From positions 1 to 37,824 of the forward strand of contig CAMBQX010000002.1 in NCBI GenBank assembly GCA_945870085.1: DNA of 37,824 nucleotides, written 5' to 3'. Below, piece after piece: positions 22,954-35,993 of this stretch (position 1 is the stretch's first letter; every line of letters begins with the position of its first letter). The translations under genes were made by a program, and so were the position numbers. Origin of the DNA: Bifidobacterium breve (lineage in GTDB: Bacteria > Actinomycetota > Actinomycetes > S36-B12). A model generated the notes under the pieces. The model did not search any database and was not told where the DNA came from. It worked only from the letters and a program-made list of their open reading frames with translations.

Positions 22954-22964
22954 CAATTTTCTCG

Positions 22965-23004
22965 AAAAGGGTGTGTCCGGGATTTTTGCGGGCACACCCT
23001 TTTT
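22965..23004. terminator. Bidirectional intrinsic terminator between convergent rutA and wrbA
   Basis: AAAAGGGTGTGTCCG-ggatttttg-CGGGCACACCCTTTT: a 15-bp stem (one G-U in the plus-strand RNA) with a 9-nt loop. An A-run lies on one side and a T-run on the other. Confidence 0.65.
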
Positions 23005-23112
23005 AGGTTGGCAAATTGGGAGCCAACAACCAAAAAGGCGGGCGGTGAAGTTTGTTACTTACCGACCGAGGGCTGACGCCGATGGTGAGAATGCGCTGAG
23101 GCAACACCTCAC

Positions 23113-23739
23113 TCAAGCCTGTGCCTCCTTACCCGTGCGAAGCCAACCTGTGACTCGTGCGAGTCTTGCCCCCTGCATGCGGGCAGCAGTCAGGGCCACC
23201 TCATCGGGAGCCGCCCCGCTGCGGGAAACGAATGAAGCTCCATACGGGTTTCCGGAGACCTTGAGCAGATGCTCATTTTCATAACCGAGCGGCAGCACAA
23301 TTGATCCCCAGTGATAGAAATGATTATTAATTGCAAGAATGGTCGACTCCAATCCCCCGTGAGCCGTTGAGCTGGAAGTAAAGGCTGTTCCCACCTTGTC
23401 TACGAGGACCCCTTTCGCCCATAAGCCCCCGGTAGTGTCAAGAAAAGCTTTCATCTGACTCGCGGGGCCGCCAAAGCGCGTAGGAGAGCCGATGGCAATG
23501 GCATCAGCCCAAGCAATATCGTCGAGAGTGGCAACCGGCTCTTTGGCATTAACTTTGACGAACTCAGCCCATTTTGGGTTGTAGGCAATCGCCTCAGGGG
23601 GCGCCAATTCCGCTACGCATCGCACCCTGACCTGTGCTCCCGCAGAAGCGGCACCTTCGCCAAGTGCTTCTGCCATCGCGGCAACATTACCGGTTGACGA
23701 GTAATAGATAACGGCAACATTGCAGGTGGTCTTACTCAT
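23113..23739 (-). CDS. wrbA: NAD(P)H:quinone oxidoreductase type IV (WrbA, flavodoxin-like)
   Basis: ATG at 23739 preceded by AGAGGAG; the track ORF is N-terminally over-extended to 23832. Motifs VIYYSSTGN, GSPTRFGG and a WrbA-type C-terminus. Confidence 0.85.
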   Translation of the reverse strand: MSKTTCNVAVIYYSSTGNVAAMAEALGEGAASAGAQVRVRCVAELAPPEAIAYNPKWAEFVKVNAKEPVATLDDIAWADAIAIGSPTRFGGPASQMKAFLDTTGGLWAKGVLVDKVGTAFTSSSTAHGGLESTILAINNHFYHWGSIVLPLGYENEHLLKVSGNPYGASFVSRSGAAPDEVALTAARMQGARLARVTGWLRTGKEAQA

Positions 23740-23756
23740 GGTGCTCCTCTGTTTAA

Positions 23757-24671
23757 TTACGAAATGGGCGGGAATACACCTGCACGGCCGGCCAGAGCCG
23801 GTGGTGTGCGTTCCAACAGGCTGCCAACCCATTCGGCGGTTGAGACTATGACATCGCGCTTAATTCCGGTGTGGAAACCACTTCGCACAGCGAGAAAGTC
23901 CAGATCTTCGGTGGCGATATTTCCGGTTGCCGCAGGTGAAAATGGGCAGCCCCCAAAACCCCCCGCTGCAGCATCAAGTACACGCACACCCTCCTCCAGG
24001 GCAGCAGCTGCATTCGCATAGCCGGTGTTGCGTGTGTTATGAAAGTGAAACCGCACAGGGATTCCAGGAGCTACCTCTCGAACCATGCCGGTCAATGCCC
24101 GGACCTGCGCTGGCACGCCCACACCGATTGTGTCGGCTAGGGCGATCTCATCTACTCCGGCCTCGGCAAAGACACGCACCACAGCGCGCACCTGATCTAC
24201 ACTCACCTCCCCATCGAATGGACAACCGAAAGCAACCGCGGCCGTTCCCGTAACGGGAACACCGGCACTTTTTGCATCAGCGGTCACCGCTCGGACCACC
24301 TGTAGCATGTCGGCGACATCAATGTTCTGATTGGCCCGACTCATTCCATCAGTCGAAGGTACCACCACATTTATCTCGTCCACACTGCTAGCCAACGCTC
24401 GGTCATTCCCTCGCTGGTTTAGGACAAGCCCGCTATAAGAGACTCCGATGTCTCGTTGAAGGCCCGCCATCACTTCCTCAGCAAAGGCCATCTGCGGCAC
24501 GAGCTTAGGATTGACGAAACTCACCGCCTCTATACGACGAACACCTGCTTTAACTAACCGGTTGATAAGTTCAATTCGATCGTCGACAGACAACGGGATA
24601 CGCTCGTTTTGCAACCCATCACGCGGACAGACCTCAAGGATGGTTATCTTTTCGCTGGACATAGACCCCAT
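23757..24671 (-). CDS. Hydroxymethylglutaryl-CoA lyase family (HMGL-like DRE-TIM) protein
   Basis: 304 aa. N-terminal EVCPRDGLQNE, the SFVNPK.VPQMA region, and a metal-binding HFHNTRNTG motif. Confidence 0.85.
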   Translation of the reverse strand: MGSMSSEKITILEVCPRDGLQNERIPLSVDDRIELINRLVKAGVRRIEAVSFVNPKLVPQMAFAEEVMAGLQRDIGVSYSGLVLNQRGNDRALASSVDEINVVVPSTDGMSRANQNIDVADMLQVVRAVTADAKSAGVPVTGTAAVAFGCPFDGEVSVDQVRAVVRVFAEAGVDEIALADTIGVGVPAQVRALTGMVREVAPGIPVRFHFHNTRNTGYANAAAALEEGVRVLDAAAGGFGGCPFSPAATGNIATEDLDFLAVRSGFHTGIKRDVIVSTAEWVGSLLERTPPALAGRAGVFPPIS

Positions 24672-24829
24672 TTTTCCATCATTCGCAATAAGTTAATAGT
24701 CGGTATGCAATCACACTAACAACTCACAGGTTTCGACCTCTTGTTATCGAGAAGCTACCCCGCCTAAAGTCTAGGCCTCGGCGCGCTAATCCACATCTCG
24801 GCCATTGAACTCGGCCACTCTCGTCAGGG

Positions 24830-25744
24830 TCATTCCGCGGCGGGTGAGTCGTACATGAACCGGTACAAATCCGGTCGCCGGTCATTCCAGACCGGCCAGA
24901 GTGAACGCGCCTTATCCAACTCGGAAAGATTCAGCTCCGCACTTATGATTTCAGGCTGCTGGTGCGCTTTCGCCTCGGCGAGGACTTCGCCGCTCGGCGC
25001 AATAATACAGGACCGCCCGAAATAGTCGGTCACGTGTCCCCGGTGATTTTCCAACCCCGCCCTGTTGGCTGCGATTACGAAGACTCCAACTTCCATTGCC
25101 CGGAGCCGCAAGTCATCAACAAATAATGATTCGCGCCAGCCAAAAGATGAGACGGCAGCAATCACCACCTGCGCTCCAAGGTGCCGATTTGCTAGCCATA
25201 CTTCAGAAAAGGCGCGGTCGTAGCAAATAAGTGCCCCCAACCGAACCCCGTCTAGATCGAAAGTCATCGGCGACGGCCCTGGCTTGCAGTACGCAGCCTC
25301 ATCTACTCTCAGGTCTCCAGAGAACACCGACGGCGCAGTCAACTTTCGAAAAGTCTGATATCGCTCGCCGTGCGGACCTACACCTTCAACAAGGTATCCG
25401 CGGCTATCCAGCAATACCAGTGAGTTGTACACAATGCCATCCGCGCCCCTTTCCGCCATCCCAAATGCGACCGCCGTCGATGTCTTGCGAGCAATATCGG
25501 AAAAGAACTTAGTTGTTGGCCCGTCCACAGGTTCAGCCCACTTTTGAGCCTCAGGATCAAATGGACCGGAGGCAAAGTAGGCAGTGGTACACAATTCCGG
25601 CAAGAGGACCAAATCTCTACCCTTATGCGAGGCCTGTTGGACTAGAACGGCCAAGGCCGCTAGATTCTCAGGTACCGAAGGCCCGCAGCCCCCGGATTGC
25701 ACTACCGCAACCTTCAAAGCACTCTCCCTCGCATGAGGAGTCAA
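24830..25744 (-). CDS. Carbon-nitrogen hydrolase (nitrilase superfamily amidase)
   Basis: E/K/C triad contexts LLPEL, FRKL and ALICYDRAFSE. The maximal ORF starts at the TTG at 25744. An internal TTG at 25717 has a better SD (AGGGAG 6 nt upstream). Confidence 0.8.
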   Translation of the reverse strand: MTPHARESALKVAVVQSGGCGPSVPENLAALAVLVQQASHKGRDLVLLPELCTTAYFASGPFDPEAQKWAEPVDGPTTKFFSDIARKTSTAVAFGMAERGADGIVYNSLVLLDSRGYLVEGVGPHGERYQTFRKLTAPSVFSGDLRVDEAAYCKPGPSPMTFDLDGVRLGALICYDRAFSEVWLANRHLGAQVVIAAVSSFGWRESLFVDDLRLRAMEVGVFVIAANRAGLENHRGHVTDYFGRSCIIAPSGEVLAEAKAHQQPEIISAELNLSELDKARSLWPVWNDRRPDLYRFMYDSPAAE

Positions 25745-25915
25745 CCTACCCAGATTTACGCTCCCCGTCCAGAACTTCCCCGCCTATTCCGTCCAGCGGG
25801 CGAAAGGGACAATTTGCCGAGTTAAACGGGACATTTACAACAATTCGGTGGCTCAGCGTGCGAAAAGACTCTACATATTGTATGCATAGGGGTCACTAAG
25901 CGAAAGGATCTGTCA

Positions 25916-26929
25916 GTGCCGTCGGCCACCATCAAGATCGAGGCTCGAGAGAAAGCCCGGCAAAGCGGAGTTATGGCTCGACGGGTTCAAGCGTATTCGA
26001 TACTTGTTGCGTGGGCGTTCCTTATCTTAGTATTCACTCTTCTGCTGCCCGATACCTTCCTCACTATTCAAAATTTCACCGCCATCGCCAACTCGAAGAC
26101 CGCTACTGTTCTGCTCACTTTGGGCTTGATCTTTGCACTTGCCGCTGGCGAATTTGACTTGAGCATCGGGGCGGCGCTTTCCTTGGGGGCAGCGATCCCG
26201 GCGTGGCTGTACGACGTATACGGGACTCCAGTTTTGATCGGTATCCTCGTCGCGTTGATGGCGGCCGCCCTGATGGGAGCATTAAACGCCTTACTTTCAG
26301 TGAGATACAGCATCCCTTCGCTGGTGGTAACCCTTGGTACCGGAACGGCCGTCATTGGCTTGGTGGCCGGCATCGTCGGTAACAGTACAATTTCGATTCG
26401 CGGCGACTGGTGGAACGAGGTGCTCACCCACCGTACCTTCGGTCTCTACACCTCGTTTTGGATCGTGATGCTGATCGCCTTGATTATTTGGTATATCCTT
26501 CAACAGACTCCGATCGGCCGGCACCTTTATTTTGTGGGCCAAGGTCGTGAGGTTGCCCGCCTTGCGGGTATCAGGGTGAATGCTTACCGATACGCAGCCC
26601 TGATCACGTCAGCGACACTTGGCTGTCTCGCTGGAGCGTTCCTGCTCGGGAATACCGGAGCCATCCAAGCGCGGATCGGGCAATTCTTTATTTTGGCTGC
26701 CTTTGCGGCAGCATTTCTAGGGTCCACAGCCATCGTTCCAGGGCGGTTCAATGCCTGGGGCACCGTGGTGGCTGTTTACTTTATTGAGACCGGTATCACC
26801 GGACTACAGCTCCTAGGCCTTCAGGCCTGGGTTTCGGACGTCTTCTACGGCACCGCGCTCGTGGTCGGCGTCCTCGTGGCTACTCTTGCCACACGTTTGC
26901 GGTCGCGCCTTTCGGCACGGTCGACTTGA
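25916..26929 (+). CDS. ABC transporter permease (RbsC/AraH-type, sugar-class)
   Basis: 337 aa with a GTG start. Roughly 9-10 hydrophobic spans with ribose-type permease composition. Followed by the binding-protein and ATPase genes. Confidence 0.8.
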   Translation: MPSATIKIEAREKARQSGVMARRVQAYSILVAWAFLILVFTLLLPDTFLTIQNFTAIANSKTATVLLTLGLIFALAAGEFDLSIGAALSLGAAIPAWLYDVYGTPVLIGILVALMAAALMGALNALLSVRYSIPSLVVTLGTGTAVIGLVAGIVGNSTISIRGDWWNEVLTHRTFGLYTSFWIVMLIALIIWYILQQTPIGRHLYFVGQGREVARLAGIRVNAYRYAALITSATLGCLAGAFLLGNTGAIQARIGQFFILAAFAAAFLGSTAIVPGRFNAWGTVVAVYFIETGITGLQLLGLQAWVSDVFYGTALVVGVLVATLATRLRSRLSARST

Positions 26930-26946
26930 TTACGAGAGGAACACAT

Positions 26947-28167
26947 ATGAAGCAGCGCAGCATTAAGCGCTCTCTTGGGCAGCTAGCTGCCCTCGGGATC
27001 GTATCGGCCGTCGTCTTGACGGCCTGCGGTGGCAGCAGCAGTGGCGAGGCCACGTCTGCTGCGCCTGAACCAGCCCCGGTAGTTGCATCGGAAGCACCCG
27101 CGGAAGCCGCAGCAACTGAGGCTCCAGCACCTGGTCCAGCCGATGGGGTTGTGGAGGCGTTGGCTCGCTACGATGCAGCCAAGGCGCCAATCGTTTTCAG
27201 TTACCCGGGTGAGGCTTTTGATGCCGCCGCTTCGGCAAAGGGCAAGAAAGTCGCAATTATTTCTTGGGACGATCGCATCCCGATTTTGGCACAGTGGGGC
27301 GACACTATTCAGGCAGGTTTTCAGGATTACGGGGTGAAGGTCTCCCGCTCCTCGGCTGACTTTGACATCGAAGCCATCCCAGGTCTGTTCGCGCAGGCAG
27401 TCGCTGCCAAAGTCGACCTGATCGTGACAAACGCCATTCCGGGCGTCGTGGTCCCATTCGACACCATCGGCGACATTCCCGTGATGACAACTAATCAAAC
27501 AGCTAAGCCAGGGGTTGCGGCTGCTGACGGCATTATCGCGGACGTCTCCTTTGACTACACGATCCCAGCCCGCCTGATGGCTGACTGGTACATCGTTACC
27601 TCCGAAGGTGGCACGAAGGGCGATGCCCAAGTAGTGGCCTCAGAGGGTCAGGCATCAAGCCCGATCATGGTTGAAGAAATGCAGGCGGAAATTGCAGAAC
27701 TGTGCCCCGACTGCAAGGTTAACTTCGCCGATGCGCAACTTGGCTCCTGGTTTGATGGAGTACTGGCCAATGAGACACGCAATGCGCTCACCGCCAATTC
27801 GAACCTCAAGTTCTTGTTGCCGATTTACGATGGTATGACCTTGGCCGGTACCGACCCAGGCATCTCCGACGCTGGTAGCGACGCCACTCAGGCTTCGTTC
27901 AACGCGACCCCAGATGTCATGAAGGGTCTCGGTACCAGCTCGGTGAAAATGGACGTCGGCTGCCCGAATGACTGGTTCGGCTACGCAGTTGTTGATGCCA
28001 GTATGCGCATCTTCGCCGGAGCACCTTCCATCGCTGACTACGGCATCACCTGCCGCGTTTTCGACGCCGGGAACATCGGGGACATCGACCCATCAACGGA
28101 GAATTCCATGAACTGGTATGCAATTGACTTCTTAAAGGAGTTCAAGAGCTACTGGGGCACTCCGTAA
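26947..28167 (+). CDS. ABC transporter substrate-binding lipoprotein (type-I periplasmic-binding-protein-like), substrate unknown
   Basis: ATG at 26947 after GAGAGGA. Signal peptide with the lipobox LTAC, then an Ala/Pro/Glu-rich linker. Sits between the permease and ATPase genes. Confidence 0.7.
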   Translation: MKQRSIKRSLGQLAALGIVSAVVLTACGGSSSGEATSAAPEPAPVVASEAPAEAAATEAPAPGPADGVVEALARYDAAKAPIVFSYPGEAFDAAASAKGKKVAIISWDDRIPILAQWGDTIQAGFQDYGVKVSRSSADFDIEAIPGLFAQAVAAKVDLIVTNAIPGVVVPFDTIGDIPVMTTNQTAKPGVAAADGIIADVSFDYTIPARLMADWYIVTSEGGTKGDAQVVASEGQASSPIMVEEMQAEIAELCPDCKVNFADAQLGSWFDGVLANETRNALTANSNLKFLLPIYDGMTLAGTDPGISDAGSDATQASFNATPDVMKGLGTSSVKMDVGCPNDWFGYAVVDASMRIFAGAPSIADYGITCRVFDAGNIGDIDPSTENSMNWYAIDFLKEFKSYWGTP

Positions 28168-28216
28168 CTAGCACCTGCAGCATCAAGTTGGTGTAGTAAC
28201 TCTAAGGGAAGGGAAC

Positions 28217-30181
28217 GTGGTGGCCGAAACAGTCCTGCAGATTACGGGACTGTCGAAGACCTTCGGGGCAACTCGAGCGCTCATTGATGTTGACTTCAGT
28301 GTGCAAGCGGGTGAGGTTCATGGGCTTGTGGGGCGAAATGGCTCAGGCAAGTCCACCCTCATCAAGGTGCTTAGTGGTTACCACGTTCCCGACCCAGGGA
28401 GCCAGCTCACTCTTGGCGGGCGAGAAGTCCAGTTGCCCATTTCTGGTCGGCAAGCCGCGGCCCACGGCCTGGTGTTTGTGCACCAAGATCTAGGCTTGGT
28501 CCCCGCCTACAGCGTGCTAGAGAACATCCGGCTCAATTCTTGGAATGCCCACGGCTTCGAGCGTATTCATTGGAAAACCGAGACCGCGGAGGTTGAGGAA
28601 GAATTAGACCGCTTTGACCTTAATGTCAGGGCAGAAACACCAGTCGCGGCTCTTTCCCAGGTTGATCGTGCGATCGTCGCGATCGTAAGGGCGATGCATC
28701 ACCTTGGTAAGGACGGAAGAGGCAAGGTACTCGTGCTCGATGAGCCGACCGCCTATCTACCAAAAGATAGTGTTGAGCGAGTCTTTGAGGCCGTACGCAC
28801 CGTGGCCCAAACCGGAGCCGGCGTGGTCCTCGTCAGCCACCGCACGGACGAGGTGCTTTCACTCACCGACCGCATTACCGTCTTGCGTGATGGGCGCAGA
28901 GTTGACACTTTGATTACTTCTAAAACTGATGAACAAACTTTGGTCTCACTCATTCTTGGCCAAACCCTGTCGTCTTTCTACCCTGATCAGGTCACTGCAA
29001 AGTACGGCGATAGAGTCCTTGAAGTCGAAAAATTAAACGGTGGTCTCGTGCGGGATTTTAATATTACTGTTAACCGCGGTGAAATTGTCGGCCTTACCGG
29101 GCTAATGGGCGCCGGTCATGACGAAGTCCCCTACTACATTTTCGGAGCCCGGGATGCAAGTTCGGGACACATTGTCGTTAATAACCAAATACTGAAAACC
29201 CAAAAAGCCAGGCCTTCTAAAGCAATCGCAGCCGGTGTAGTGCTCCTCCCTGCCGATCGGCTCAATCTTTCAGGATCGGCCGCGGCCTCTGTCGAGGACA
29301 ACGTCGTGGTTCCGGTTTTCTGGCGCTACTTCTCCGGTGGTCGATTGAAGCTTGCCCAGATTCGCACACGCGTCAATTACCTGCTTGAGACCTTCGATGT
29401 CCGACCGGCACTACCCACTCTCGAGTTTAGTTCACTCTCGGGAGGCAATCAACAAAAGACCCTGCTTGCGAAATGGCTGCAGATGGAACCCGCCCTTCTG
29501 CTACTTCATGAGCCAACCCAGGGCGTAGACGTTGGCAGCAAGTCTGAAATTTTCTCCCGCATCACCGATGCGGCCGAAGCAGGTGCAGCGGTCATCATCG
29601 CGAGCGCTGAATATGAAGATCTTGCGAATTTGTGCACCCGAGTCCTCGTATTCGACAGCGGTCGCGTGGTGGGGGAAGTCTCTGGGGCTGAAATGTCGGC
29701 GGATCGCCTCCTCGATCTTTGCTACCGGGGCGCCCGCGCACGTGGAGCACACGGAATGATCTTTCAGTGGCGCCCCTACCGGATTGGTTTCGTTCCTCAA
29801 GGAATAGAGCCGGAGTTCATTGAAACTCCAGCTCCAGTAAGTGTTTCATATGTTTTTCAGTGGCGCCCCCACCGGGTAGGTTTTGTTAAACTTCTAACTT
29901 TGCAGAAAGCAATGGAGCCGGTTGCCACACCTTCACTAGAGCGTGTCTTTCAATGGCGCCCCCACCGGGTAGGTTTTGTTCCTCAAGGAATAGAGCCGGA
30001 GTTCATTGAAACTCCAGCTCCAGTAAGTGTTTCATATGTTTTTCGGTGGCGCCCCCACCGAGTAGGTTACGTTGAACTTCTAACTTTGCAGAACTCAATG
30101 GAGCCGGTTGCCACACCTTCACTAGAGCGTGTCTTTAGGTGGCGCCCCCACCGGGTAGGTTACTTTGACGCTGCCGAGTGA
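28217..30181 (+). CDS. Tandem-domain sugar-type ABC ATPase (RbsA/MglA-like). The core ends near aa 505-513, and the ORF runs on in frame through a repeat array
   Basis: GTG start after AAGGGAAGGGA. NBD1 has GRNGSGKST and VLVLDEPT. NBD2 has LSGGNQQK and LLLLHEPTQGVD. The ATPase-like sequence ends around ...SADRLLDLCYRG. The last ~141 codons (29756-30181) are the repeats. Whether that tail is translated as part of the ATPase is unresolved. Confidence 0.8.
   Translation: MVAETVLQITGLSKTFGATRALIDVDFSVQAGEVHGLVGRNGSGKSTLIKVLSGYHVPDPGSQLTLGGREVQLPISGRQAAAHGLVFVHQDLGLVPAYSVLENIRLNSWNAHGFERIHWKTETAEVEEELDRFDLNVRAETPVAALSQVDRAIVAIVRAMHHLGKDGRGKVLVLDEPTAYLPKDSVERVFEAVRTVAQTGAGVVLVSHRTDEVLSLTDRITVLRDGRRVDTLITSKTDEQTLVSLILGQTLSSFYPDQVTAKYGDRVLEVEKLNGGLVRDFNITVNRGEIVGLTGLMGAGHDEVPYYIFGARDASSGHIVVNNQILKTQKARPSKAIAAGVVLLPADRLNLSGSAAASVEDNVVVPVFWRYFSGGRLKLAQIRTRVNYLLETFDVRPALPTLEFSSLSGGNQQKTLLAKWLQMEPALLLLHEPTQGVDVGSKSEIFSRITDAAEAGAAVIIASAEYEDLANLCTRVLVFDSGRVVGEVSGAEMSADRLLDLCYRGARARGAHGMIFQWRPYRIGFVPQGIEPEFIETPAPVSVSYVFQWRPHRVGFVKLLTLQKAMEPVATPSLERVFQWRPHRVGFVPQGIEPEFIETPAPVSVSYVFRWRPHRVGYVELLTLQNSMEPVATPSLERVFRWRPHRVGYFDAAE
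29756..30166. repeat. Tandem array of five 33-nt cores at exact 93-bp spacing, with two alternating 60-nt inter-core segments (186-bp higher-order unit, ~2.2 copies)
   Basis: Cores start at 29762, 29855, 29948, 30041 and 30134 (TTTCAGTGGCGCCCCCACCGGGTAGGTTTTGTT-like). Segment A (29795-29854) is identical to 29981-30040. Segment B (29888-29947) differs from 30074-30133 at 3 nt. Confidence 0.95.
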
Positions 30182-30897
30182 GGCTTCGCAGCGAATACCT
30201 CAAGCCTGACATAGTCGACGCAGCGATCACCCATTGTGCGCGCAACCTGCGTTCGCTGCTCATCGCTGAGACGATGAAGAACAACATTTTTTAGGTAGTC
30301 AAGGTAAATCACGTCTGTTTGAAAAACTGCAGGTGCGATCCGCAGATTAACCTCTATCGGAGTAAGCCCCACGCATCGCAAGTGGCCAATAGTTTCGTCC
30401 ACCCCAGCGTAATGCCAAAGTGGCAACAAGTCTCCAGCGGAGACAGCATCAACGGCCGCCAGAAGACGCTCAATATTACCCTCGCCGCCTGCATCAATTC
30501 GCACGCGGCCCCCAGGTTTGAGGACTCGGGCAACCTGCTCCCAAGCACGTTCAGGCCTCCCCAGCCAGTGAAAAGCAGCGACCGACATCACCGCGTCTAC
30601 GCTTTCTGTTTCAACCGGCCAGGTTTCCATGAGATCAGCAGCGCAGATTTTCACCTGCGCAGAGCCGATGAATCGGCGTTCACATGCGGCACGCATCGTA
30701 GGTGAAGAGTCCAGCCCGATGATGGAACCACGCGGCAAACGAGATAGCGCGAGAGCAGCGTCTCGCCCGCTGCCACAACCGGCATCAACGAGGATCTCGT
30801 TACCGTTGAGTTCCATTTTGTTAACAACCCTTTGCCCCCACTCTTCGTGCGGCAGCGGCAGTGCTTCATACCTGTCAGGGTCCCAAGAAATGGTCAC
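30160..30897 (-). CDS. Class I SAM-dependent methyltransferase, trans-aconitate-methyltransferase (Tam)-like
   Basis: GTG at 30897 overlaps the selD stop (GTGA); the track ORF is over-extended to 31056. N-terminal WDPDRYE, SAM motif I VDAGCGSG, then GLDSSPTM and AAFHWL, as in Tam. Confidence 0.8.
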   Translation of the reverse strand: MTISWDPDRYEALPLPHEEWGQRVVNKMELNGNEILVDAGCGSGRDAALALSRLPRGSIIGLDSSPTMRAACERRFIGSAQVKICAADLMETWPVETESVDAVMSVAAFHWLGRPERAWEQVARVLKPGGRVRIDAGGEGNIERLLAAVDAVSAGDLLPLWHYAGVDETIGHLRCVGLTPIEVNLRIAPAVFQTDVIYLDYLKNVVLHRLSDEQRTQVARTMGDRCVDYVRLEVFAAKPHSAASK

Positions 30898-31901
30898 AAT
30901 GTTCGCCCGCCCGCAGTGATCAACACATCCCGCTCTTCTGGATATTTCCGCGCGTGGACGTGACCAATCGGCCAGAAGCCAGCGGGAATGGGACCCGGAG
31001 CAATAGCGGCCAGCAGACCACCGGATGTCTGTGGATCGACCAAAAGAGCAAGCCAATCCTCAGTGACCCGGATATCGGTGCGGGACTGGACCCACTCTAA
31101 GTTCGTATCGTGAGCAGAGGTGCGCCAACCGGCCAAGGCTAGAGCATGTACTCCATTCAAAAGTGGGATCTTGTCAACGGAAAGCGATACGGTGATGTCT
31201 GATGTGACCAAACCCAGCAGATGGCCAAGCAGCCCGTAGCCAGTGACATCTGTGACCGCATGGGGTCCACCCGAAAGACAGGAAAGTTCACGTGCCGCAT
31301 CCATTGCCGGGGTCTGCATCAAATGAAGAGCCTCCGGTAACACTGATGGATCCTGCGAAGTCACAGCAAGTCCAACTCCCAAAGGCTTGCTCAAGACCAG
31401 AACATCACCAGGTTGGGCGCCAATTATGCGCCACACGCGATCAGGATGCACTACTCCCATCACTGAAAGGCCAAATAGTATTCCGTTCGAATGCACGGTA
31501 TGACCACCGGTAATTAGGCCGCCACAGCCGTGCATGACATCTCGAGCGCCCGCCATCATCGCGGCGATGTACTGCACGTCCGTGTCGCGTGGAAACGCCG
31601 CCAAACTGAGCGCACTTAAGACCTTACCGCCCATCGCGTAAACATCGTTTACCGCATTTGCAGCAGCTACGGCTCCCGAGACGTACGGGTCGAGCGTAAG
31701 TGGTGGGCTGACATCCATGGTGGTGACGATGGCACGAGTTGCGTCAAGAATTTGGACCGCGGCATCGTCAGGCACAGTTAGACCAACAAGAAGTTCAGGT
31801 GGATCCTGGACTTGACGAACCTGATCAACCAGCGTTGCAACCAAGTGTGGCGAGGCTTTCGCCGCACAGCCACCACATTCGCGCGGTGGCCGCTCTAGCA
31901 C
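30894..31901 (-). CDS. selD: Selenide, water dikinase (selenophosphate synthetase), Cys-type
   Basis: 335 aa; the GTG start directly abuts the upstream TAG. Aligns with remembered E. coli SelD: N-loop ECGGCAAKASP (GAGCGCKISP), PDDAAV (RDDAAV), TTMDV (STTDF), AAANAVNDVYAMGG (AATNAISDIFAMGG), AVTDVTGYGLLGH (AMTDVTGFGLLGH), DPQTSGGLL. Confidence 0.85.
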   Translation of the reverse strand: MLERPPRECGGCAAKASPHLVATLVDQVRQVQDPPELLVGLTVPDDAAVQILDATRAIVTTMDVSPPLTLDPYVSGAVAAANAVNDVYAMGGKVLSALSLAAFPRDTDVQYIAAMMAGARDVMHGCGGLITGGHTVHSNGILFGLSVMGVVHPDRVWRIIGAQPGDVLVLSKPLGVGLAVTSQDPSVLPEALHLMQTPAMDAARELSCLSGGPHAVTDVTGYGLLGHLLGLVTSDITVSLSVDKIPLLNGVHALALAGWRTSAHDTNLEWVQSRTDIRVTEDWLALLVDPQTSGGLLAAIAPGPIPAGFWPIGHVHARKYPEERDVLITAGGRTL

Positions 31902-33284
31902 CTAGACACCCTGACCACGCCAAATGTTGACGGCCTTGGATGCATCCTTGGCACCTGCAAGCCCCAGCACACTCTCCAAAATCTGCTGTCCAGCCGACCG
32001 AGTCGTCACAATTTCGATATTCGACATGAACTTTTCCTCGATCTCGATTGCCGAGAGTGGGCGCTCATCAGCCCCACGATTGACCGACTCACGATGTCGC
32101 AATTCCCGGCCATCGGTGGTTGTAATTATTACCTCTCCGCAAAAATGCCTAGGGAAAGTACTCTTCGGATCTATCTCGTATCGAACTCTTGACGCCACCG
32201 CCAGACTAGCGGAATCCGACAATGCTTCTAAATCCAGCTCAGCAAGGGTGAACCGTCGGCGGGTAGCTGCCGTCCCGACCAGATAGGCAAGTGAGAACTT
32301 GGCATCGTAATCTGAACATGGAGTCAGTTTTACCTCTGCGGGTTCGCAGACCACCGGGATAATCTCCGCGGGGACAAGGCACAATATGTCAGCAATATCA
32401 TCGGCGACAAGATCATTTTCAATAACAAGTGCCAAGGTGGCGTCCATGAAAGCATGAGTGAAGTGGCAGGCTGGGTAGGGCTTGATCGCCACACTGAGCA
32501 GTTCCCACTCCTCACCCAAAGCTCGGGTAGCCGCCTGCAAATCAACCTCATGGCCATCAGGGACGTGCGATGCGTACAGCCCAAACCGCCCTTCATAAAC
32601 ATCCGGAGGTGCTTGCCACCCCGCCGCCGCGAACCGCGCGGACATAAGTGCGGTGGAAGCAGCCCATCCAGGATGCATGCGCTTGGTCCACGCACCGGTG
32701 TCAAGGAACTGCAGCGAGCCTGCTGCAAGGCTGCCCACAATTCCTTGTGCCGCGGTAATGCCCTTCACGTCGAGGCCGCTCATTCGTGCGGCCGCGACCG
32801 CGGATCCAAAGGCTCCCACCAAACCTGTGGGGTGAAAACCCTTGGCATGGAAACCGCCATGAGCCCCTGCTCCCACGCGCGCAGAAATCTCGATCGCTAT
32901 CAGATATCCCAACAGTAGATCAGATCCCAAAAGGTGATCGCGTTCAGCGATGGCCATGGCTGTAGGAAGTGCTGAAGCCGATGCGTGGAGAATTCCAGAC
33001 GGATGAGTATCGTCGTAGTCAAGTCCATGTATAAGGATGCCATTGAGTAAAGCCGCGTCACCAAGCGGTAATCGTTGTGGCATCCCAATGACAGATGAAG
33101 GCCCCTCCCCCGAAGTTGCCAGTACCGCGGCGGCAACGAAATCATCACTGGAACAGGCGTATGCCAGGCCAACACAATCTAGAACATGAAGCGCGGCACG
33201 TTCACGAACTTGCTCCGGCACGTCCTCCCATGTGACGCGATGTGCCCACTCAGCAATGCGTGCAGCAATCGGATCGCTTTTCAT
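31902..33284 (-). CDS. MmgE/PrpD family protein (2-methylcitrate-dehydratase-like)
   Basis: ATG at 33284, 13 nt after the upstream stop, with GAGGAG. The track ORF is over-extended to 33413. Typical N-terminus (IAEWAHRVTWEDVPEQVRERAALHVLDCVG), DYDDTH, and a C-terminal PrpD domain. Confidence 0.85.
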   Translation of the reverse strand: MKSDPIAARIAEWAHRVTWEDVPEQVRERAALHVLDCVGLAYACSSDDFVAAAVLATSGEGPSSVIGMPQRLPLGDAALLNGILIHGLDYDDTHPSGILHASASALPTAMAIAERDHLLGSDLLLGYLIAIEISARVGAGAHGGFHAKGFHPTGLVGAFGSAVAAARMSGLDVKGITAAQGIVGSLAAGSLQFLDTGAWTKRMHPGWAASTALMSARFAAAGWQAPPDVYEGRFGLYASHVPDGHEVDLQAATRALGEEWELLSVAIKPYPACHFTHAFMDATLALVIENDLVADDIADILCLVPAEIIPVVCEPAEVKLTPCSDYDAKFSLAYLVGTAATRRRFTLAELDLEALSDSASLAVASRVRYEIDPKSTFPRHFCGEVIITTTDGRELRHRESVNRGADERPLSAIEIEEKFMSNIEIVTTRSAGQQILESVLGLAGAKDASKAVNIWRGQGV

Positions 33285-33297
33285 GTACCTAACTCCT

Positions 33298-34599
33298 CTA
33301 ACGCTCGGATGTAATTGATGTTTTGCTGGTGTCAAATCGCAGTCCAAGGCTCTCCGCGATGGTGGTTCGCTGCACCTCATCGGTACCACCAGGAATGCGG
33401 AGGTTACGAGCAATCTGGAAAAGCTTGTTAATTGAGGTATCGCGCATCACACCAAGGCCACCATGGACTTGCAAAGCGCGATCGGCCACACGATAGAAAC
33501 TTTCATCGTTACTAACCTTCAGGGCGCAGATGCGGCGAATCTCATCACGCGGCCGGGGGATTCGGTACCACGGGCCCGGAGTATCGATTGCTCGCGCCAC
33601 TTCGAGTGATAACGATCTTGTCTGCAGCCAGTCGACGTACATATCCGCAATCATCCACTGGATCCCCTGATTGGCCCCTAACGGCATACCGGCAATCTGT
33701 CTATCGGTGGCACGTTCTAGTGTCCGCTCAATCAAATAGCGACTCCAACCAGAGCACATTCCGGCTCTTCGCATTCGCGTGTAATTGAATGACATCACCG
33801 CAATATCGAATCCCTGCCCTACTTCACCAAGAATCGCACTCTCTGGCAGCACTAGATCATCAAAAAAAATCTCACCGGTGTACCCGTCACCGAACATTGT
33901 TTGATACAGGTTTCCCAACCGGTACCCACGCGACGCGGCTTCTCGCGTATCGAACATAAAATAGGTAAAAGAACGACGGCCACCTTTTGGATCAGTCACC
34001 GCCAGTATCTGTGCAACATCGGCATCAAAGTAGTTGGTTATGTAGGCCTTGGAACCATTTAACACCCAGTCAGACCCGCGCTTCTCGGCCTTGGTCGACA
34101 TATCGAACAAATTGCTTCCGGCGCCAGACTCGGTAACACCGTGAAGGGAAGTCTTTTCGCCGCGAACGAGCGGATCGGTGAACTCTTGACGCTGGTGATC
34201 GTGAGCGAACAGCAAACGAGGAGTTGCTCCCTCCGACCAGGAGAGAAGAGCCGGGTTGAGACCTACCCCGTAGCCGTATACCAACTCCTCGACATAGATC
34301 ATTTCCTCACGCCCCAACCCGAGCCCGCCAAGGTGCTCCGGAAGGTGTGCGCTGTAGATACCTTTTTTCCCCGCTGCACGCATTATTTCGCGGCGAGCCT
34401 GCACGATTTCGGGGTGTAGCCGCCCATCACTATCCAAAAACTCTCGCTCATTGCTCAGCCGGTGTGCAAGAGATGCCTCACGAGGTTCAACCTCCTCGCG
34501 GTGGAGTTGACGAACTTTTTCGAGAATATCCTTCAGGTGCTCAGGGGCCTGAGCATCTTGCAGCAGAACTTCTGATTCATGTGCCGCCGTGCTTACCAT
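33298..34599 (-). CDS. Acyl-CoA dehydrogenase-fold flavoprotein, non-canonical active-site motif
   Basis: 433 aa. ACAD three-domain layout (HGVTESGAGSN, WVLNGSKAYITN, C-terminal helical domain). The usual YEGT reads PGGT. ATG preceded by AAGGAG, with a 7-nt overlap onto the upstream gene. Confidence 0.8.
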   Translation of the reverse strand: MVSTAAHESEVLLQDAQAPEHLKDILEKVRQLHREEVEPREASLAHRLSNEREFLDSDGRLHPEIVQARREIMRAAGKKGIYSAHLPEHLGGLGLGREEMIYVEELVYGYGVGLNPALLSWSEGATPRLLFAHDHQRQEFTDPLVRGEKTSLHGVTESGAGSNLFDMSTKAEKRGSDWVLNGSKAYITNYFDADVAQILAVTDPKGGRRSFTYFMFDTREAASRGYRLGNLYQTMFGDGYTGEIFFDDLVLPESAILGEVGQGFDIAVMSFNYTRMRRAGMCSGWSRYLIERTLERATDRQIAGMPLGANQGIQWMIADMYVDWLQTRSLSLEVARAIDTPGPWYRIPRPRDEIRRICALKVSNDESFYRVADRALQVHGGLGVMRDTSINKLFQIARNLRIPGGTDEVQRTTIAESLGLRFDTSKTSITSER

Positions 34600-35993
34600 C
34601 GGGAGGACTCCTTCATTATTTGGGGGCGTTCAAGATAAATCGGCTCAGTTTCAGGAACAGGCATTGCAATAGGTGAAAGCGGCAGGGCTGATTTTATCGA
34701 AGCACCCGGTCGGTGCCCGACAAAAAATGGGCGTCGCGCCAAACCATGCAGGAGTGGTGCAATATCAGCAGCGCGTAGCGAACCGAGCGCCCCCGAAAGT
34801 GCCGCGGTTTCCCCGAACTCTCGGACAGAATCCTTGCGCTGTTCAGGAGCGACAACAACTATGGGTGTGGGGTCACCACTGTGCATGAGTAATCCTTCAC
34901 TTGGTGTCGCGTGGTCACCGGTCACAGCAAGCACGAGATCACCCCGATCAATAATGTCAATAAAAGCCGCGATGGCAGCATCGCACGCTTCTATCGCGGC
35001 TATCTTGGCCTCGGGTTTCTTGGTGTGACCGGCTTCATCCGGTGCCTTTGTATGAACATGAATAAAATCAGGACGCTGCTCTTCACCTAGAAGACGAATG
35101 GCCGACTGGACCCGCGCACTCAGGCCTAGCCCGGCGTCCTCCGCGGGCGCAGCGACATCAACCTCGCGCATCCCTAGGGTTCTAGCCAAACCCCGGTAAA
35201 GCGCACTGCTCGTTACCATGGTCCCTTGCACTCCCACAAGATCAAGAAACGAAAGCGGTTGCCCGGCTATAGACGGCCACTTGGTCGTGGGAACGGTAAT
35301 TTCTAAACCTGCGCATACTAGGGTCGCGTGCGCTCCAAGGAGGTACGCCTTCAGCGCCTCAGCTGTGCGCCGCGCCTCGACTAGTCGGCGCCCACCTGCA
35401 ACGACACATTCTTGTAAAGGCACGGGCAGCATCCAAGGGTGCATGTGATCAAAGAGCGGGTCCGAGTCGCTGACCTCGATCGATTCAAGCCCGTGGGCTA
35501 GCAAAACCCACTCTCCGAGTCGTAGTGATTCAATGCTGAATGAGACACCGTCAACGACGAATTCTTCGGTCCATTCCTGCAGAATCCGATTCAAAGTGTG
35601 GGCAATATCGCTGTGCTGCGACCCCATCCGGCCCGTAATTCGCATAACACCATCAACTTGTTCGCCACGCCGGGCTGCCAAGTGCCACATCGGCGTACCC
35701 AGTGGCGGGACTCCACCCTCACCAACCCACTCAAGAAGAGCCCGGCCTGGAAAAGCCAGCTCCGGTAGTCCGAACATCGCCCAATGCGATCGCTCACTCG
35801 AAGTTGCCCAACCTGGTCCAAAAGGCACATGAACACCGTTGGCTCCTCTCGCGGCTAATTCATCCAGAGCCGGAGTCGAAGCAACTTCTAATGGTGTTCG
35901 CCCACCTAGGGACAAACAGGGACGATCACCCAAACCATCAAGGACTACGAGAACGACGGGTAGGTCATCGCGCTGCGGCCACTTCGACTTCAT
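34593..35993 (-). CDS. ApgM-like cofactor-independent phosphoglycerate-mutase family / alkaline-phosphatase-superfamily phosphomutase
   Basis: ATG at 35993 (ATGA overlap); the track ORF is over-extended to 36053. Metalloenzyme motifs VVLDGLGD, ASTPALDELA, HTKAPDEAGH and TGDHATP. Confidence 0.7.
   Translation of the reverse strand: MKSKWPQRDDLPVVLVVLDGLGDRPCLSLGGRTPLEVASTPALDELAARGANGVHVPFGPGWATSSERSHWAMFGLPELAFPGRALLEWVGEGGVPPLGTPMWHLAARRGEQVDGVMRITGRMGSQHSDIAHTLNRILQEWTEEFVVDGVSFSIESLRLGEWVLLAHGLESIEVSDSDPLFDHMHPWMLPVPLQECVVAGGRRLVEARRTAEALKAYLLGAHATLVCAGLEITVPTTKWPSIAGQPLSFLDLVGVQGTMVTSSALYRGLARTLGMREVDVAAPAEDAGLGLSARVQSAIRLLGEEQRPDFIHVHTKAPDEAGHTKKPEAKIAAIEACDAAIAAFIDIIDRGDLVLAVTGDHATPSEGLLMHSGDPTPIVVVAPEQRKDSVREFGETAALSGALGSLRAADIAPLLHGLARRPFFVGHRPGASIKSALPLSPIAMPVPETEPIYLERPQIMKESSRW

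What the first reader, a model, noticed from the sequence alone, without database searches (positions are those of the whole stretch)
29744..30181. The array is open in exactly one frame and encodes five F[QR]WRP[HY]R[VI]G[FY] motifs: an ATPase tail, or a separate multi-core peptide?
The ATPase homology ends near ...LLDLCYRG, but no stop follows. The frame stays open through all repeats and closes 15 nt after the last core. All stop triplets in the unit (TGA, TAA x2, TAG x2) fall in the other two plus-strand frames. The 93-bp period equals 31 codons. Fillers A and B are related only through in-frame indels (IEPEFIETPAPVSVSYVF versus MEPVATPSLERVF). An internal ATG (29756) lies 8 nt after GGAG and would give a 141-aa product of 11-aa aromatic/basic cores separated by 20-aa linkers. 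That layout recalls multi-core RiPP precursors. Three points argue against coding: codon usage is atypical (ATA, GTA, TCA, AGT; third-position G+C is 11 of 31 codons, ~35%, in one 93-bp repeat unit I counted), substitutions between units are mostly non-synonymous, and no obvious maturation enzyme is adjacent on this strand.
Basis: partly seen in the sequence, partly recalled or inferred. Interest (0 to 1): 0.65.

Follow-up and report, generated by a model that had tools for sequence, protein, structure and literature searches.

The report
Conserved hairpin-repeat tail on ABC ATPase
The 93-bp repeat array is a translated C-terminal tail of a sugar-type ABC importer ATPase from a freshwater actinobacterium, carrying five copies of an undescribed, strongly conserved 10-14-residue motif (RVF-x-W-x-P-H-R-V-G-Y) whose function is unknown but is probably docking or regulation, not a separate RiPP peptide.

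Summary
Five cores sit at a 93-bp period, only one frame is open, and the stop lies 15 nt after the last core.

The array is coding and belongs to the ATPase. All 30 motif-bearing relatives (47-79% identity) form one clade of CUT2-type ABC ATPases. The clade comes from lake Actinomycetota, including at least 24 species-level, mostly Nanopelagicales-labelled MAGs. Each member carries 1-5 in-frame copies of [FY]-x-W-x-P-[HY]-x-x-G-x. Linkers differ in sequence and length. The sister group stops shortly after ...CY(R/Q).

Selection acts on the amino acids. Pro uses 3 codons, Gly 4, and Arg and Val 4-5. Pooled pN/pS is 0.04 in motif codons and 0.37 in linkers.

The internal ATG and GGAG are not conserved. 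No RiPP maturase lies in the window or in syntenic loci. Context-free scans of genomes, metagenomes and 1.84 billion representative proteins found motif arrays only in this ATPase family.

AlphaFold2 predicts each motif as a β-hairpin with Pro-His in the turn, at modest confidence (pLDDT 50-69). The linkers are predicted disordered.

No Pfam, NCBIfam, PDB or literature match was found. The likely role is a multivalent docking or regulatory appendage of the importer. That role is inferred, not shown.

The parts
25916..26929 (+). ABC permease gene (BPD_transp_2), first gene of the transporter operon
   Evidence: Pfam PF02653, E 3e-30. The same permease-SBP-ATPase order occurs in L012, L014 and L018.
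26926..28167 (+). Substrate-binding lipoprotein gene. It has no Pfam hit here; orthologues have a weak Peripla_BP_4 hit.
   Evidence: The N-terminus has a lipobox-like ...LTACGG.
28217..29731 (+). ATPase body: two fused nucleotide-binding domains (CUT2/RbsA-AraG-XylG-like), aa 1-505, ending ...LLDLCYRG
   Evidence: NCBIfam AraG, YtfR, XylG and RbsA models align to aa 4-512, all below their equivalog cut-offs. Pfam ABC_tran x2. AF2 pLDDT is mostly >90. pN/pS vs L001 is 0.12.
29732..29755 (+). Basic Gly/Ala/Arg junction (ARARGAHG), conserved as ARGRGAHG in close orthologues
29762..29791 (+). Motif 1, FQWRPYRIGF. Tyr replaces His here, as in the first motif of most close orthologues. The extended hairpin MIFQWRPYRIGFVP spans 29756-29797.
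   Evidence: AF2 strands 514-519 and 522-527, with P520-Y521 in the turn.
29792..29854 (+). Linker A (VPQGIEPEFIETPAPVSVSYV). The EPEF element after motif 1 is conserved in orthologues.
   Evidence: AF2 pLDDT is low in part of the linker.
29855..29884 (+). Motif 2, FQWRPHRVGF
   Evidence: AF2 strands 543-550 and 553-560.
29885..29947 (+). Linker B (VKLLTLQKAMEPVATPSLERV)
   Evidence: AF2 pLDDT <50 at 564-576.
29948..29977 (+). Motif 3, FQWRPHRVGF
29978..30040 (+). Linker A', a duplicate of linker A. It is the second copy of the 186-bp super-unit.
   Evidence: the repeat finder D1: 29760-29945 vs 29946-30131, 94% identity.
30041..30070 (+). Motif 4, FRWRPHRVGY
30071..30133 (+). Linker B', a duplicate of linker B
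30134..30163 (+). Motif 5, FRWRPHRVGY
30164..30181 (+). C-terminal pentapeptide FDAAE plus the TGA stop. Orthologues mostly end ...VGY(V/L)D(A/G)A or ...VGYVD.
30160..30880 (-). Convergent class-I SAM methyltransferase gene. Its start is approximate. Its stop codon (30160-30162) lies inside the ATPase ORF, so the two genes overlap by 22 nt.
   Evidence: The orthologous arrangement in L014 overlaps by 4 nt.

Best explanation
SHOWN. The repeat array is the translated C-terminal extension (aa ~506-654) of the only ATPase subunit of a permease-SBP-ATPase ABC importer. The host is an uncultured freshwater actinobacterium. The tail consists of five copies of a 10-14-residue motif, consensus R-V-F-[RQV]-W-[RSQ]-P-[HY]-R-V-G-[YF]-V-[DE], separated by ~20-residue linkers that evolve quickly. 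The motif arose once, at the base of a clade of these ATPases. Every member kept it, in 1-5 copies. Copy number changes by gain and loss of whole in-frame units; the window shows a recent 186-bp duplication.

INFERRED, moderate support. Each motif folds as a short amphipathic β-hairpin with Pro-His (or Pro-Tyr) in the turn. One face is aromatic and aliphatic (F, W, V/I, Y/F). The other face is Arg-rich. The linkers are flexible.

INFERRED, weak support; my committed guess. The hairpins are multivalent docking modules that act within this transport system. They either bind the transporter's own cytoplasmic surfaces (NBD dimer or permease loops) to gate ATPase activity, or they recruit the cognate cytosolic enzymes. 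Extra copies would add avidity or reach. The motif occurs on no other protein, which points to a system-specific partner rather than a general hub.

My confidence in each part: translated, selected tail ~0.95; hairpin ~0.6; intra-system docking or regulation ~0.35.
For: Relatives:
- The motif-bearing clusters listed (47-79% identity) carry in-frame tails with 1-5 motif copies and unrelated linkers. More distant relatives stop 8-25 aa after ...CY(R/Q).
- In an NJ tree of residues 1-500, all 30 motif-bearing sequences form one clade with no motif-less member. The sister group is tail-less.

Selection:
- W is invariant. Pro is encoded by CCC, CCA and CCG. Gly uses all four codons. Phe uses TTT and TTC; His uses CAC and CAT. 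Arg uses 4-5 codons and Val uses 4.
- Pooled pairwise pN/pS is 0.04 in motif codons (for example L007 vs L023: 10 syn, 0 nonsyn) and 0.37 in linkers.
- Window vs L001: tail pN/pS is 0.33 in frame, against 0.53 and 1.44 in the other two plus-strand frames.
- No indels appear in population contigs from four lake metagenomes.
- Close relatives differ by whole in-frame units: L014 has 4 motifs vs L038 with 3; L027 has 4 vs 3 in P0019's tail.

Specificity:
- Degenerate DNA scans of 596 Gb of genomes and of the metagenome collection found every multi-copy hit in this ATPase tail.
- A motif HMM searched against 1.84e9 representative proteins gave only two real hits, both fragments of the same family.
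- The 740-aa form occurs in >=24 species-level lake MAGs, mostly labelled Nanopelagicales or Actinomycetota, with a highly conserved tail.

Structure and charge:
- AF2 predicts a strand-turn-strand at each of the five motifs (pLDDT 50-69) and linkers with pLDDT <50. A second, poor model shows hairpins again.
- Mean net charge is +1.7 in the motif, +0.9 in the 6 aa upstream and -0.8 in the 6 aa downstream.

Precedent: C-terminal add-ons to ABC importer NBDs commonly act as regulators (PMC10710835).
Against: - There is no direct evidence of the protein. Metatranscriptome contigs cover the SBP gene and the 5' two-thirds of the ATPase gene, but not the array.
- Hairpin confidence is modest, and AF2 shows no confident docking onto the NBDs.
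- No partner has been identified. Beyond the transporter genes, no neighbouring family is shared by all four syntenic loci.
- The cationic, aromatic make-up fits binding to anionic lipid or nucleic acid equally well.
- The tail's GC3 (0.44) is lower than that of neighbouring genes, and its pN/pS is higher than that of the ATPase body.
Confidence: 0.6

Rival explanations
1. The tail is translated as above, but the hairpins act as cationic amphipathic anchors. They bind the anionic inner-leaflet surface (or another polyanion) and so tether or sense, in the way ionic-strength- or lipid-sensing C-terminal extensions of osmoregulatory transporters do.
For: The motif and its upstream flank are net cationic (+1.7 and +0.9) and rich in W, F and Y. 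The NBDs sit at the membrane surface. Lipid-interacting C-terminal extensions of transporters are documented (review PMC10710835).
Against: Generic lipid binding rarely needs near-invariant W, P, H and G with pN/pS 0.04. If the membrane were the target, the motif would be expected on other membrane-associated proteins. It occurs only on this ATPase clade.
Confidence: 0.2
2. The tail is a multi-core RiPP-like substrate. The W-x-P-H units would be post-translationally cross-linked and/or proteolytically released, either from the ATPase tail or from a separately initiated 141-aa product starting at ATG 29756.
For: The layout is tandem conserved cores with variable copy number and variable spacers. 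W and H are spaced i/i+3, as in the Trp-His-cross-linked ring of moroidin (core QLLVWRGH), whose cores are repeated inside a larger protein (PMC11253845). The Met is conserved in the closest group.
Against: No rSAM, YcaO, lanthipeptide, P450, BURP, ATP-grasp, peptidase or exporter genes lie in the window, and none is shared by the syntenic loci. The internal Met is Leu in P0009 and absent in two subclades, and GGAG is not kept at synonymous sites. The carrier is an intact, strongly constrained ATPase (pN/pS 0.12) that is the operon's only ATPase. In the 792-aa and 740-aa forms a further domain follows the motifs. The flanking linkers lack conserved cleavage sites.
Confidence: 0.04
3. The array is non-coding repetitive DNA or RNA (a REP/MIRU-like element, a degenerate CRISPR-like array or a terminator hairpin) that is open in one frame by accident after loss of the ATPase stop codon. 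Alternatively it is translated but is neutral junk.
For: The period is a multiple of 3, as in some actinobacterial VNTRs. The window-lineage cores contain the inverted repeat CGGTGG/CCACCG. GC3 is lower than in neighbouring genes.
Against: There are no other copies in the window or elsewhere in genomes except at this gene's 3' end. The DNA is not conserved but the peptide is. The stem is absent in 20 of 42 distinct instances and is not enriched over synonymous resampling outside the window lineage (1.83 vs 1.66 bp). There is no Rfam hit. The 'spacers' are duplicated, so this is not a CRISPR array. Motif pN/pS of 0.04 and retention across the whole clade rule out neutrality.
Confidence: 0.02

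Closest known systems
C-terminal regulatory domains fused to ABC-importer nucleotide-binding subunits (MetN C2, ModC and MalK TOBE-type domains, OpuA CBS)
   Same: An extra module is fused to the C-terminus of the NBD of a binding-protein-dependent importer. It is lineage-specific, sits in the cytoplasm, and is plausibly a post-translational control element (review PMC10710835).
   Different: Those are globular, homologous domains present in a fixed copy number, and they bind substrate or nucleotide. This tail is a variable-number array of 10-14-residue hairpin motifs on disordered linkers. It has no Pfam, NCBIfam or PDB sequence match. No ligand or trans-inhibition is known for it.
Eukaryotic WRPW/WRPY Groucho/TLE-binding motifs (Hairy/Hes, Runx)
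   Same: Both have a W-R-P-aromatic core. Motif 1 here is literally WRPY. Both are short linear motifs near a C-terminus that would serve as a docking peptide. (Resemblance noted from my own knowledge; papers found.)
   Different: They come from a different domain of life and occur as a single copy at the extreme C-terminus. I recall them binding the TLE WD40 domain; I did not check that or their bound conformation in a paper. Most copies here are WxPH, embedded in a longer conserved hairpin. No propeller partner is conserved. An RCC1/WD40-like gene lies 4.5 kb away only in L012 and L013. This is an analogy only.
Multi-core RiPP precursors, especially fused burpitide precursors such as KjaBURP (moroidin, QLLVWRGH repeats)
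   Same: Both have tandem repeats of a short aromatic/basic core inside a larger protein. The W-x-x-H spacing equals that of the moroidin Trp-His ring. Copy number varies (PMC11253845).
   Different: There is no cyclase domain and no maturase nearby. The carrier is a working transporter ATPase. The spacers are unconserved and lack evident cleavage sites. In some lineages further domains follow the cores.
In-frame VNTRs and MIRU-type actinobacterial tandem repeats
   Same: The period is a multiple of three, the array sits at a gene's end in an actinobacterium, and copy number differs between close strains.
   Different: MIRU/REP elements are dispersed DNA families (from my own knowledge). This unit occurs at one locus only and is conserved as a peptide, not as DNA.
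Aromatic β-hairpin repeats (PD40 'WSPDG' propeller hairpins, choline-binding and MORN repeats)
   Same: Both are predicted strand-turn-strand units with a Trp two residues before a turn-forming Pro (compare WSPDG with WSPHR). Both are tandemly repeated.
   Different: No Pfam model of these families matches, even at E<=1. The units here are separated by long disordered linkers instead of packing into a solenoid or propeller. The location is cytoplasmic.

Membership tests
Multi-core RiPP precursor | A dedicated precursor ORF, or a precursor fused to its own modifying enzyme | tested here: not met
   The motifs are fused in frame to an ABC ATPase in all relatives. The internal Met and SD are not conserved.
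Multi-core RiPP precursor | Co-localised maturase, protease or exporter genes | tested here: not met
   Pfam scans of 30 window ORFs and the gene tables of L011-L016 show only transporter and catabolic enzymes.
Multi-core RiPP precursor | Conserved recognition or cleavage sequences flanking each core | tested here: inconclusive
   Only R-V upstream and V-[DE] downstream are semi-conserved. The rest of the spacers are unrelated between lineages.
Multi-core RiPP precursor | A modified or released peptide product | not testable with these tools
   This needs mass spectrometry.
C-terminal regulatory domain of ABC-importer NBDs (TOBE / MetN-C2 / CBS) | Fused to the C-terminus of the NBD of a binding-protein-dependent importer | tested here: met
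   Operon permease-SBP-ATPase. The tail follows the second NBD.
C-terminal regulatory domain of ABC-importer NBDs (TOBE / MetN-C2 / CBS) | Homology to a known regulatory fold family | tested here: not met
   No Pfam or NCBIfam hit on the tail at E<=1, and no PDB sequence hit at E<=10.
C-terminal regulatory domain of ABC-importer NBDs (TOBE / MetN-C2 / CBS) | Ligand-dependent inhibition of ATPase or transport | not testable with these tools
   This needs a biochemical assay.
Dispersed non-coding repeat (REP/MIRU/MITE) or CRISPR array | Multiple dispersed copies (REP/MIRU), or unique spacers between identical repeats (CRISPR) | tested here: not met
   There are no copies outside 29768-30161 in the window. 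Genome and metagenome scans hit only this gene's 3' end. The spacers are duplicated A-B-A-B.
Dispersed non-coding repeat (REP/MIRU/MITE) or CRISPR array | Conservation at the nucleotide or RNA-structure level | tested here: not met
   Synonymous sites vary freely. The stem is not conserved. There is no Rfam hit.
WRPW/WRPY-type propeller-binding motif | W-R-P-[WY] tetrapeptide | tested here: inconclusive
   Motif 1 is WRPY. Motifs 2-5 are WRPH. Orthologues have W[RSAQH]PH.
WRPW/WRPY-type propeller-binding motif | A cognate WD40 or β-propeller partner | tested here: inconclusive
   No propeller gene lies in the window. An RCC1/WD40_RLD gene lies near L012 and L013 only. Genome-wide co-occurrence was not tested.
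Known β-hairpin repeat families (PD40, CW_binding_1, MORN) | A match to the family profile | tested here: not met
   None is listed among the Pfam hits at E<=1 for the tail or the full protein.

The most novel reading that the evidence does not exclude
The W-x-P-H/Y units could be sites of post-translational chemistry. One possibility is Trp-His or Trp-Tyr cross-linking, at the same i/i+3 spacing as the moroidin ring. Another is proteolytic release. Either would make this ATPase tail a bacterial, protein-embedded multi-core RiPP-like substrate whose modifying enzyme is encoded elsewhere. The data do not exclude this. The absence of any maturase in four syntenic contexts and the domains that follow the motifs in some lineages make it unlikely.
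Probability: 0.04. Interest if true: 0.85.

Novelty: new variant of a known kind. Interest (0 to 1): 0.5.

Why it matters
Accessory modules fused to ABC-importer ATPases are a main route of fast, post-translational control of nutrient uptake. The known ones are globular ligand-binding domains. This tail would be a different design: a variable-copy array of a strictly conserved mini-hairpin on flexible linkers. No Pfam, NCBIfam, Rfam, PDB sequence or full-text search run here matched it. It is confined to one ATPase clade. That clade is found in many lake Actinomycetota MAGs, mostly labelled Nanopelagicales; from my own knowledge, this group is very abundant in fresh water.

Identifying its partner would show how these streamlined cells regulate or organise a conserved uptake and catabolism island. 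That island encodes a luciferase-like monooxygenase, an FMN reductase, amidases, a CoA-transferase and an MmgE/PrpD protein.

The result is also a caution for annotation. A repeat that looks like intergenic DNA, with off-type codon usage, can still be a selected coding region.

Tried and rejected
- **RNA or tRNA element.** My first impression was a CRISPR-like array or a tRNA-fragment repeat. There are no tRNAs and no Rfam hit at gathering or E<=10 thresholds, and the spacers are duplicated.
- **Tail-only protein search.** It returned one fragment, P0121. It missed even the 98%-identical P0001, so the word index handles this repeat poorly.
- **Motif-profile searches in the same database.** A 41-column profile gave no hits. 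Neither result says anything about absence.
- **AF2 of the 740-aa-type tail alone.** With six sequences the model was too poor to use (mean pLDDT 38.7). I ran no fold search on it.
- **Metatranscriptomes.** Contigs from four lake samples cover the SBP gene and the 5' part of the ATPase gene but break before the array. Transcription through the array is therefore not shown.
- **PDB sequence searches.** The tail gave nothing at E<=10 and the full protein gave nothing at E<=1e-30.
- **Literature.** Searches for WRPH, WRPHR and WxPH strings and for ABC C-terminal tandem repeats found nothing relevant.
- **Extra C-terminal domains.** Those of the 792-aa and 740-aa forms show no similarity to each other.
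- **DNA-hairpin idea.** The CGGTGG/CCACCG stem was tested and rejected.
- **ClpX-type C-terminal degron.** Many tails end ...YVDAA, which recalls ssrA's ...YALAA. The window protein ends FDAAE and other tails end VD, DN or GD, so I did not pursue this.
Full report
**1. The observation**

Tandem Repeats Finder reports a 93-bp period (3.3 copies, 64% matches, 8% indels). It also reports a 186-bp super-period (2.2 copies, 93% matches, score 706) at 29760-30161. The 22-nt core matches five times, against none in 100 dinucleotide-preserving shuffles.

The ORF 28217-30181 (+) is 654 aa. From ...LCYRG onward, frame +1 carries no stop until TGA at 30179, 15 nt after the last core. The other five frames carry 4-13 stops each. 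The motif instances FQWRPYRIGF, FQWRPHRVGF x2 and FRWRPHRVGY x2 start at 29762, 29855, 29948, 30041 and 30134. ATG 29756 lies 8 nt after GGAG, as stated.

**2. The gene and its host**

Residues 1-~505 are a two-NBD, CUT2-type ABC ATPase. The AraG, YtfR, XylG and RbsA models align to aa 4-512, all well below their equivalog cut-offs, so the substrate is unknown. Pfam finds ABC_tran twice. The gene is the third and only ATPase gene of a permease-SBP-ATPase operon.

The operon sits in a catabolic island. The island encodes a luciferase-like monooxygenase, an FMN reductase, an HMGL-like lyase, C-N hydrolases, CoA-transferase III, acyl-CoA dehydrogenases, MmgE/PrpD, an AIR-synthase-like protein and a methyltransferase.

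The only genome-collection match to the exact core is a MAG labelled 'Bifidobacterium breve'. However, every public run that holds the window is a lake or freshwater metagenome. Related loci come from Nanopelagicales or Actinomycetota lake MAGs, and one of those carries the same odd label. I treat the label as unreliable and the host as a freshwater actinobacterium.

**3. Relatives decide the coding question**

A protein search with the whole ORF returned 35 clusters (47-98% identity) whose C-termini carry the motif [FY]-x-W-x-P-[HY]-x-x-G-x in frame with the ATPase. They carry 1-5 copies, and total lengths range from 536 to 792 aa. Four of the 35 are truncated fragments that still carry the motif. 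Examples:
- ...RTRRVFRWSPHRVGYVEVPVVTTSAPASEKATVARVFRWSPHRVGYVDAA
- ...KRHFRWRPHKVGYSD
- ...FVWRPHFCGWVD...

The linkers are unrelated between lineages in both sequence and length. More distant relatives (about 47-57% identity, 497-563 aa) end 8-25 residues after ...CY(R/Q) and have no motif.

In a neighbour-joining tree built only from residues 1-500, all 30 motif-bearing sequences form one clade. No motif-less sequence falls inside it. The sister group is tail-less. The tail therefore arose once and was kept by every sampled descendant.

Copy number changed repeatedly. Units within one protein resemble each other, linkers included, more than they resemble units in orthologues. Close relatives differ by whole in-frame units: L014 has four motifs and L038 three, and L027 has four where P0019's tail has three.

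**4. Selection acts on the peptide, not the DNA**

Across 27 distinct motif DNAs from nine loci:
- Trp is invariant.
- Pro is written CCC, CCA or CCG.
- Gly uses all four codons.
- Phe uses TTT and TTC; His uses CAC and CAT.
- Arg uses four to five codons, and Val uses four.

Pooled Nei-Gojobori counts on same-length orthologous tails give pN/pS 0.04 in motif codons. For example, L007 vs L023 shows 10 synonymous and 0 non-synonymous differences. Linkers give 0.37. These pairs are not phylogenetically independent, but the direction is unambiguous.

Between the window and its closest relative L001, pN/pS is 0.12 in the ATPase body and 0.33 in the tail. The same tail region read in the other two plus-strand frames gives 0.53 and 1.44.

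Contigs from four lake metagenomes show substitutions but no indels in the array.

The inverted repeat CGGTGG/CCACCG seen in the window follows from R-W...P-H-R codon choice. It is not conserved. Twenty of 42 distinct instances have no stem. Outside the window lineage the mean stem length (1.83 bp) equals the expectation from synonymous resampling (1.66 ± 0.33). Rfam finds nothing.

The lower GC3 of the tail (0.44, against 0.53-0.64 in neighbouring genes) is real but mild. It rests on about two independent 31-codon units, and parts of the ATPase body reach 0.48.

**5. Tail, not a separate peptide**

The internal Met is conserved only in the closest group. It is Leu in P0009. It is absent from the 541-aa single-motif group and from the 740-aa group.

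The GGAG upstream comes from Gly-Ala codons (GGA GCA). It is replaced by GGC GCA, GGT GCC or GGC ACT in orthologues. A conserved internal start is therefore not supported.

**6. The motif occurs nowhere else**

Three context-free searches agree:
- A degenerate back-translated pattern scanned against 596 Gb of species-representative genomes hit ten loci. Eight are this ATPase's C-terminus. Two are single chance hits in junk frames.
- A relaxed pattern scanned against the metagenome collection hit 22 loci. Every locus with two or more matches is the ATPase tail.
- An HMM of the 31-aa unit searched against 1.84 billion representative proteins gave only two significant real hits. Both are fragments of the same family.

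No other ORF in the window or in the fetched loci carries W-x-P-[HY]-x-x-G. Pfam, NCBIfam and PDB sequence searches of the tail are empty. Full-text searches for the motif strings found nothing relevant.

**7. Anatomy**

AlphaFold2 on the full protein with 113 aligned relatives models the ATPase body with pLDDT mostly above 90. It places a strand-turn-strand at each of the five motifs, for example 514-519 and 522-527 with P520-Y521 in the turn. Motif pLDDT is 50-69 and most of the linker residues fall below 50. A second model, of the 740-aa-type tail, was poor (mean pLDDT 38.7) but again put Pro-His in hairpin turns.

In that register, F, W, V/I and Y/F share one face of the hairpin and the Arg residues share the other. 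This face assignment is my inference from strand alternation.

The extended consensus is R-V-F-[RQV]-W-[RSQ]-P-[HY]-R-V-G-[YF]-V-[DE]. Mean net charge is +1.7 in the motif, +0.9 in the six residues upstream and -0.8 in the six residues downstream.

In the 740-aa form, found in at least 24 species-level lake MAGs, five motifs with short conserved linkers and a further ~100-aa region are all highly conserved. The 792-aa form has a different, unrelated extra domain.

**8. How it most likely works**

Shown: the array is a translated, selected, clade-specific C-terminal appendage of the importer's ATPase, built from a repeated mini-motif.

Inferred: each motif is an amphipathic β-hairpin on a flexible tether.

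My committed guess, at about 0.35, is that the hairpins dock on a partner within this system. The partner would be either the transporter's own cytoplasmic surfaces, giving autoregulation of the ATPase cycle, or the cytosolic enzymes that handle the imported compound. Extra copies would add avidity or reach. I base this on three points:
- Near-invariant W, P, H and G suggest a specific interface, not a composition-driven interaction.
- The motif's restriction to one protein family argues against a general cellular hub.
- One copy suffices in one subclade, so the unit itself is the functional element.

Rivals:
- Binding of the cationic aromatic hairpins to anionic lipid: about 0.2.
- A RiPP-like substrate: about 0.04. 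The W-x-x-H spacing matches the Trp-His ring of moroidin, whose QLLVWRGH cores are repeated inside a larger protein (PMC11253845). No maturase is present in any of four syntenic contexts, and in some lineages other domains follow the motifs.
- Non-coding or neutral sequence: about 0.02.

**9. Comparison with known systems**

In function it most resembles the C-terminal regulatory add-ons of ABC-importer NBDs (PMC10710835). It is not a member of any of those domain families. In sequence it recalls the eukaryotic WRPW/WRPY docking peptides and PD40-type 'WSPDG' hairpins. Both are analogies from memory and have no profile support. I class it as a new variant of a known kind: an accessory C-terminal module on an ABC ATPase, built in an undescribed way.

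**10. Limits**

- There is no protein-level evidence.
- RNA contigs do not span the array.
- The hairpin rests on modest-confidence predictions.
- No partner is identified.
- The pairwise selection statistics reuse related sequences.

Noticed in passing
L001 (CAMDKJ010000007.1) and L043 (CAMBGF010000001.1): Two lake-derived MAGs that carry this freshwater actinobacterial locus are titled 'Bifidobacterium breve' in their records. A third MAG in the same naming series (L071) is titled 'Chryseobacterium gleum'. All runs that hold the window are lake or freshwater metagenomes, so the species labels look wrong.
   Followed up: partly
window 30160-30181: The convergent methyltransferase ORF ends (TAA on the minus strand, 30160-30162) inside the ATPase ORF. 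The two genes overlap by 22 nt, including the last 4 nt of motif 5. No terminator-sized gap separates them. In L014 the same pair overlaps by 4 nt.
   Followed up: partly
L012/L013 7200-7640 (P0006, 792 aa); L011 2900-3171 (P0029, 740 aa); L029: In two subclades the motif array is followed by an extra ~100-130-aa C-terminal region with predicted helices and strands. The two regions show no similarity to each other and have no Pfam match. The 740-aa form is conserved in >=24 species-level lake MAGs, mostly labelled Nanopelagicales or Actinomycetota.
   Followed up: partly
L012 12204-14450; L013 12075-14294: An RCC1/WD40_RLD β-propeller protein gene lies about 4.5 kb downstream of the 792-aa ATPase. 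This is interesting only because WRP[WY]-type peptides bind propellers in eukaryotes. No such gene lies in the window, L011 or L014.
   Followed up: no
window 21880-34600 and L011, L012, L014: The transporter sits in a conserved island: luciferase-like monooxygenase, FMN reductase, HMGL-like lyase, C-N hydrolase, CoA-transferase III, MmgE/PrpD, an AIR-synthase-like protein and a methyltransferase. The make-up recalls two-component flavin monooxygenase pathways for organic acids or aminopolycarboxylates. The SBP (26926-28167) has no Pfam hit and the substrate is unknown.
   Followed up: no
L039 (Ga0075118_10003734), ORF 4076-4778 on the minus strand; protein P0037: This single-motif orthologue has a frameshift in the ATPase body. 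The called 551-aa protein P0037 continues in a wrong frame. This is either an assembly error or a pseudogene.
   Followed up: no
L014/L016 14312-15900 vs L015 14312-15901: A 51-aa ORF directly upstream of a cytochrome P450 gene in two contigs is fused to the P450 (529 aa) in a third, near-identical contig. The cause is probably a one-base difference or a gene-calling artefact. It lies about 4.4 kb from the ATPase.
   Followed up: no
window 29762-30163 (motif codons): The codons for R-W...P-H-R (CGG TGG ... CCC CAC CG) create a 6-bp inverted repeat, CGGTGG/CCACCG, in the window lineage. This is why the repeat looks like a structured DNA element. Other lineages do not keep it.
   Followed up: yes
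window 1691-2800 (-): A second, unrelated ABC ATPase in the window carries a classical TOBE_2 C-terminal regulatory domain. It gives an in-window contrast to the hairpin-repeat tail.
   Followed up: no
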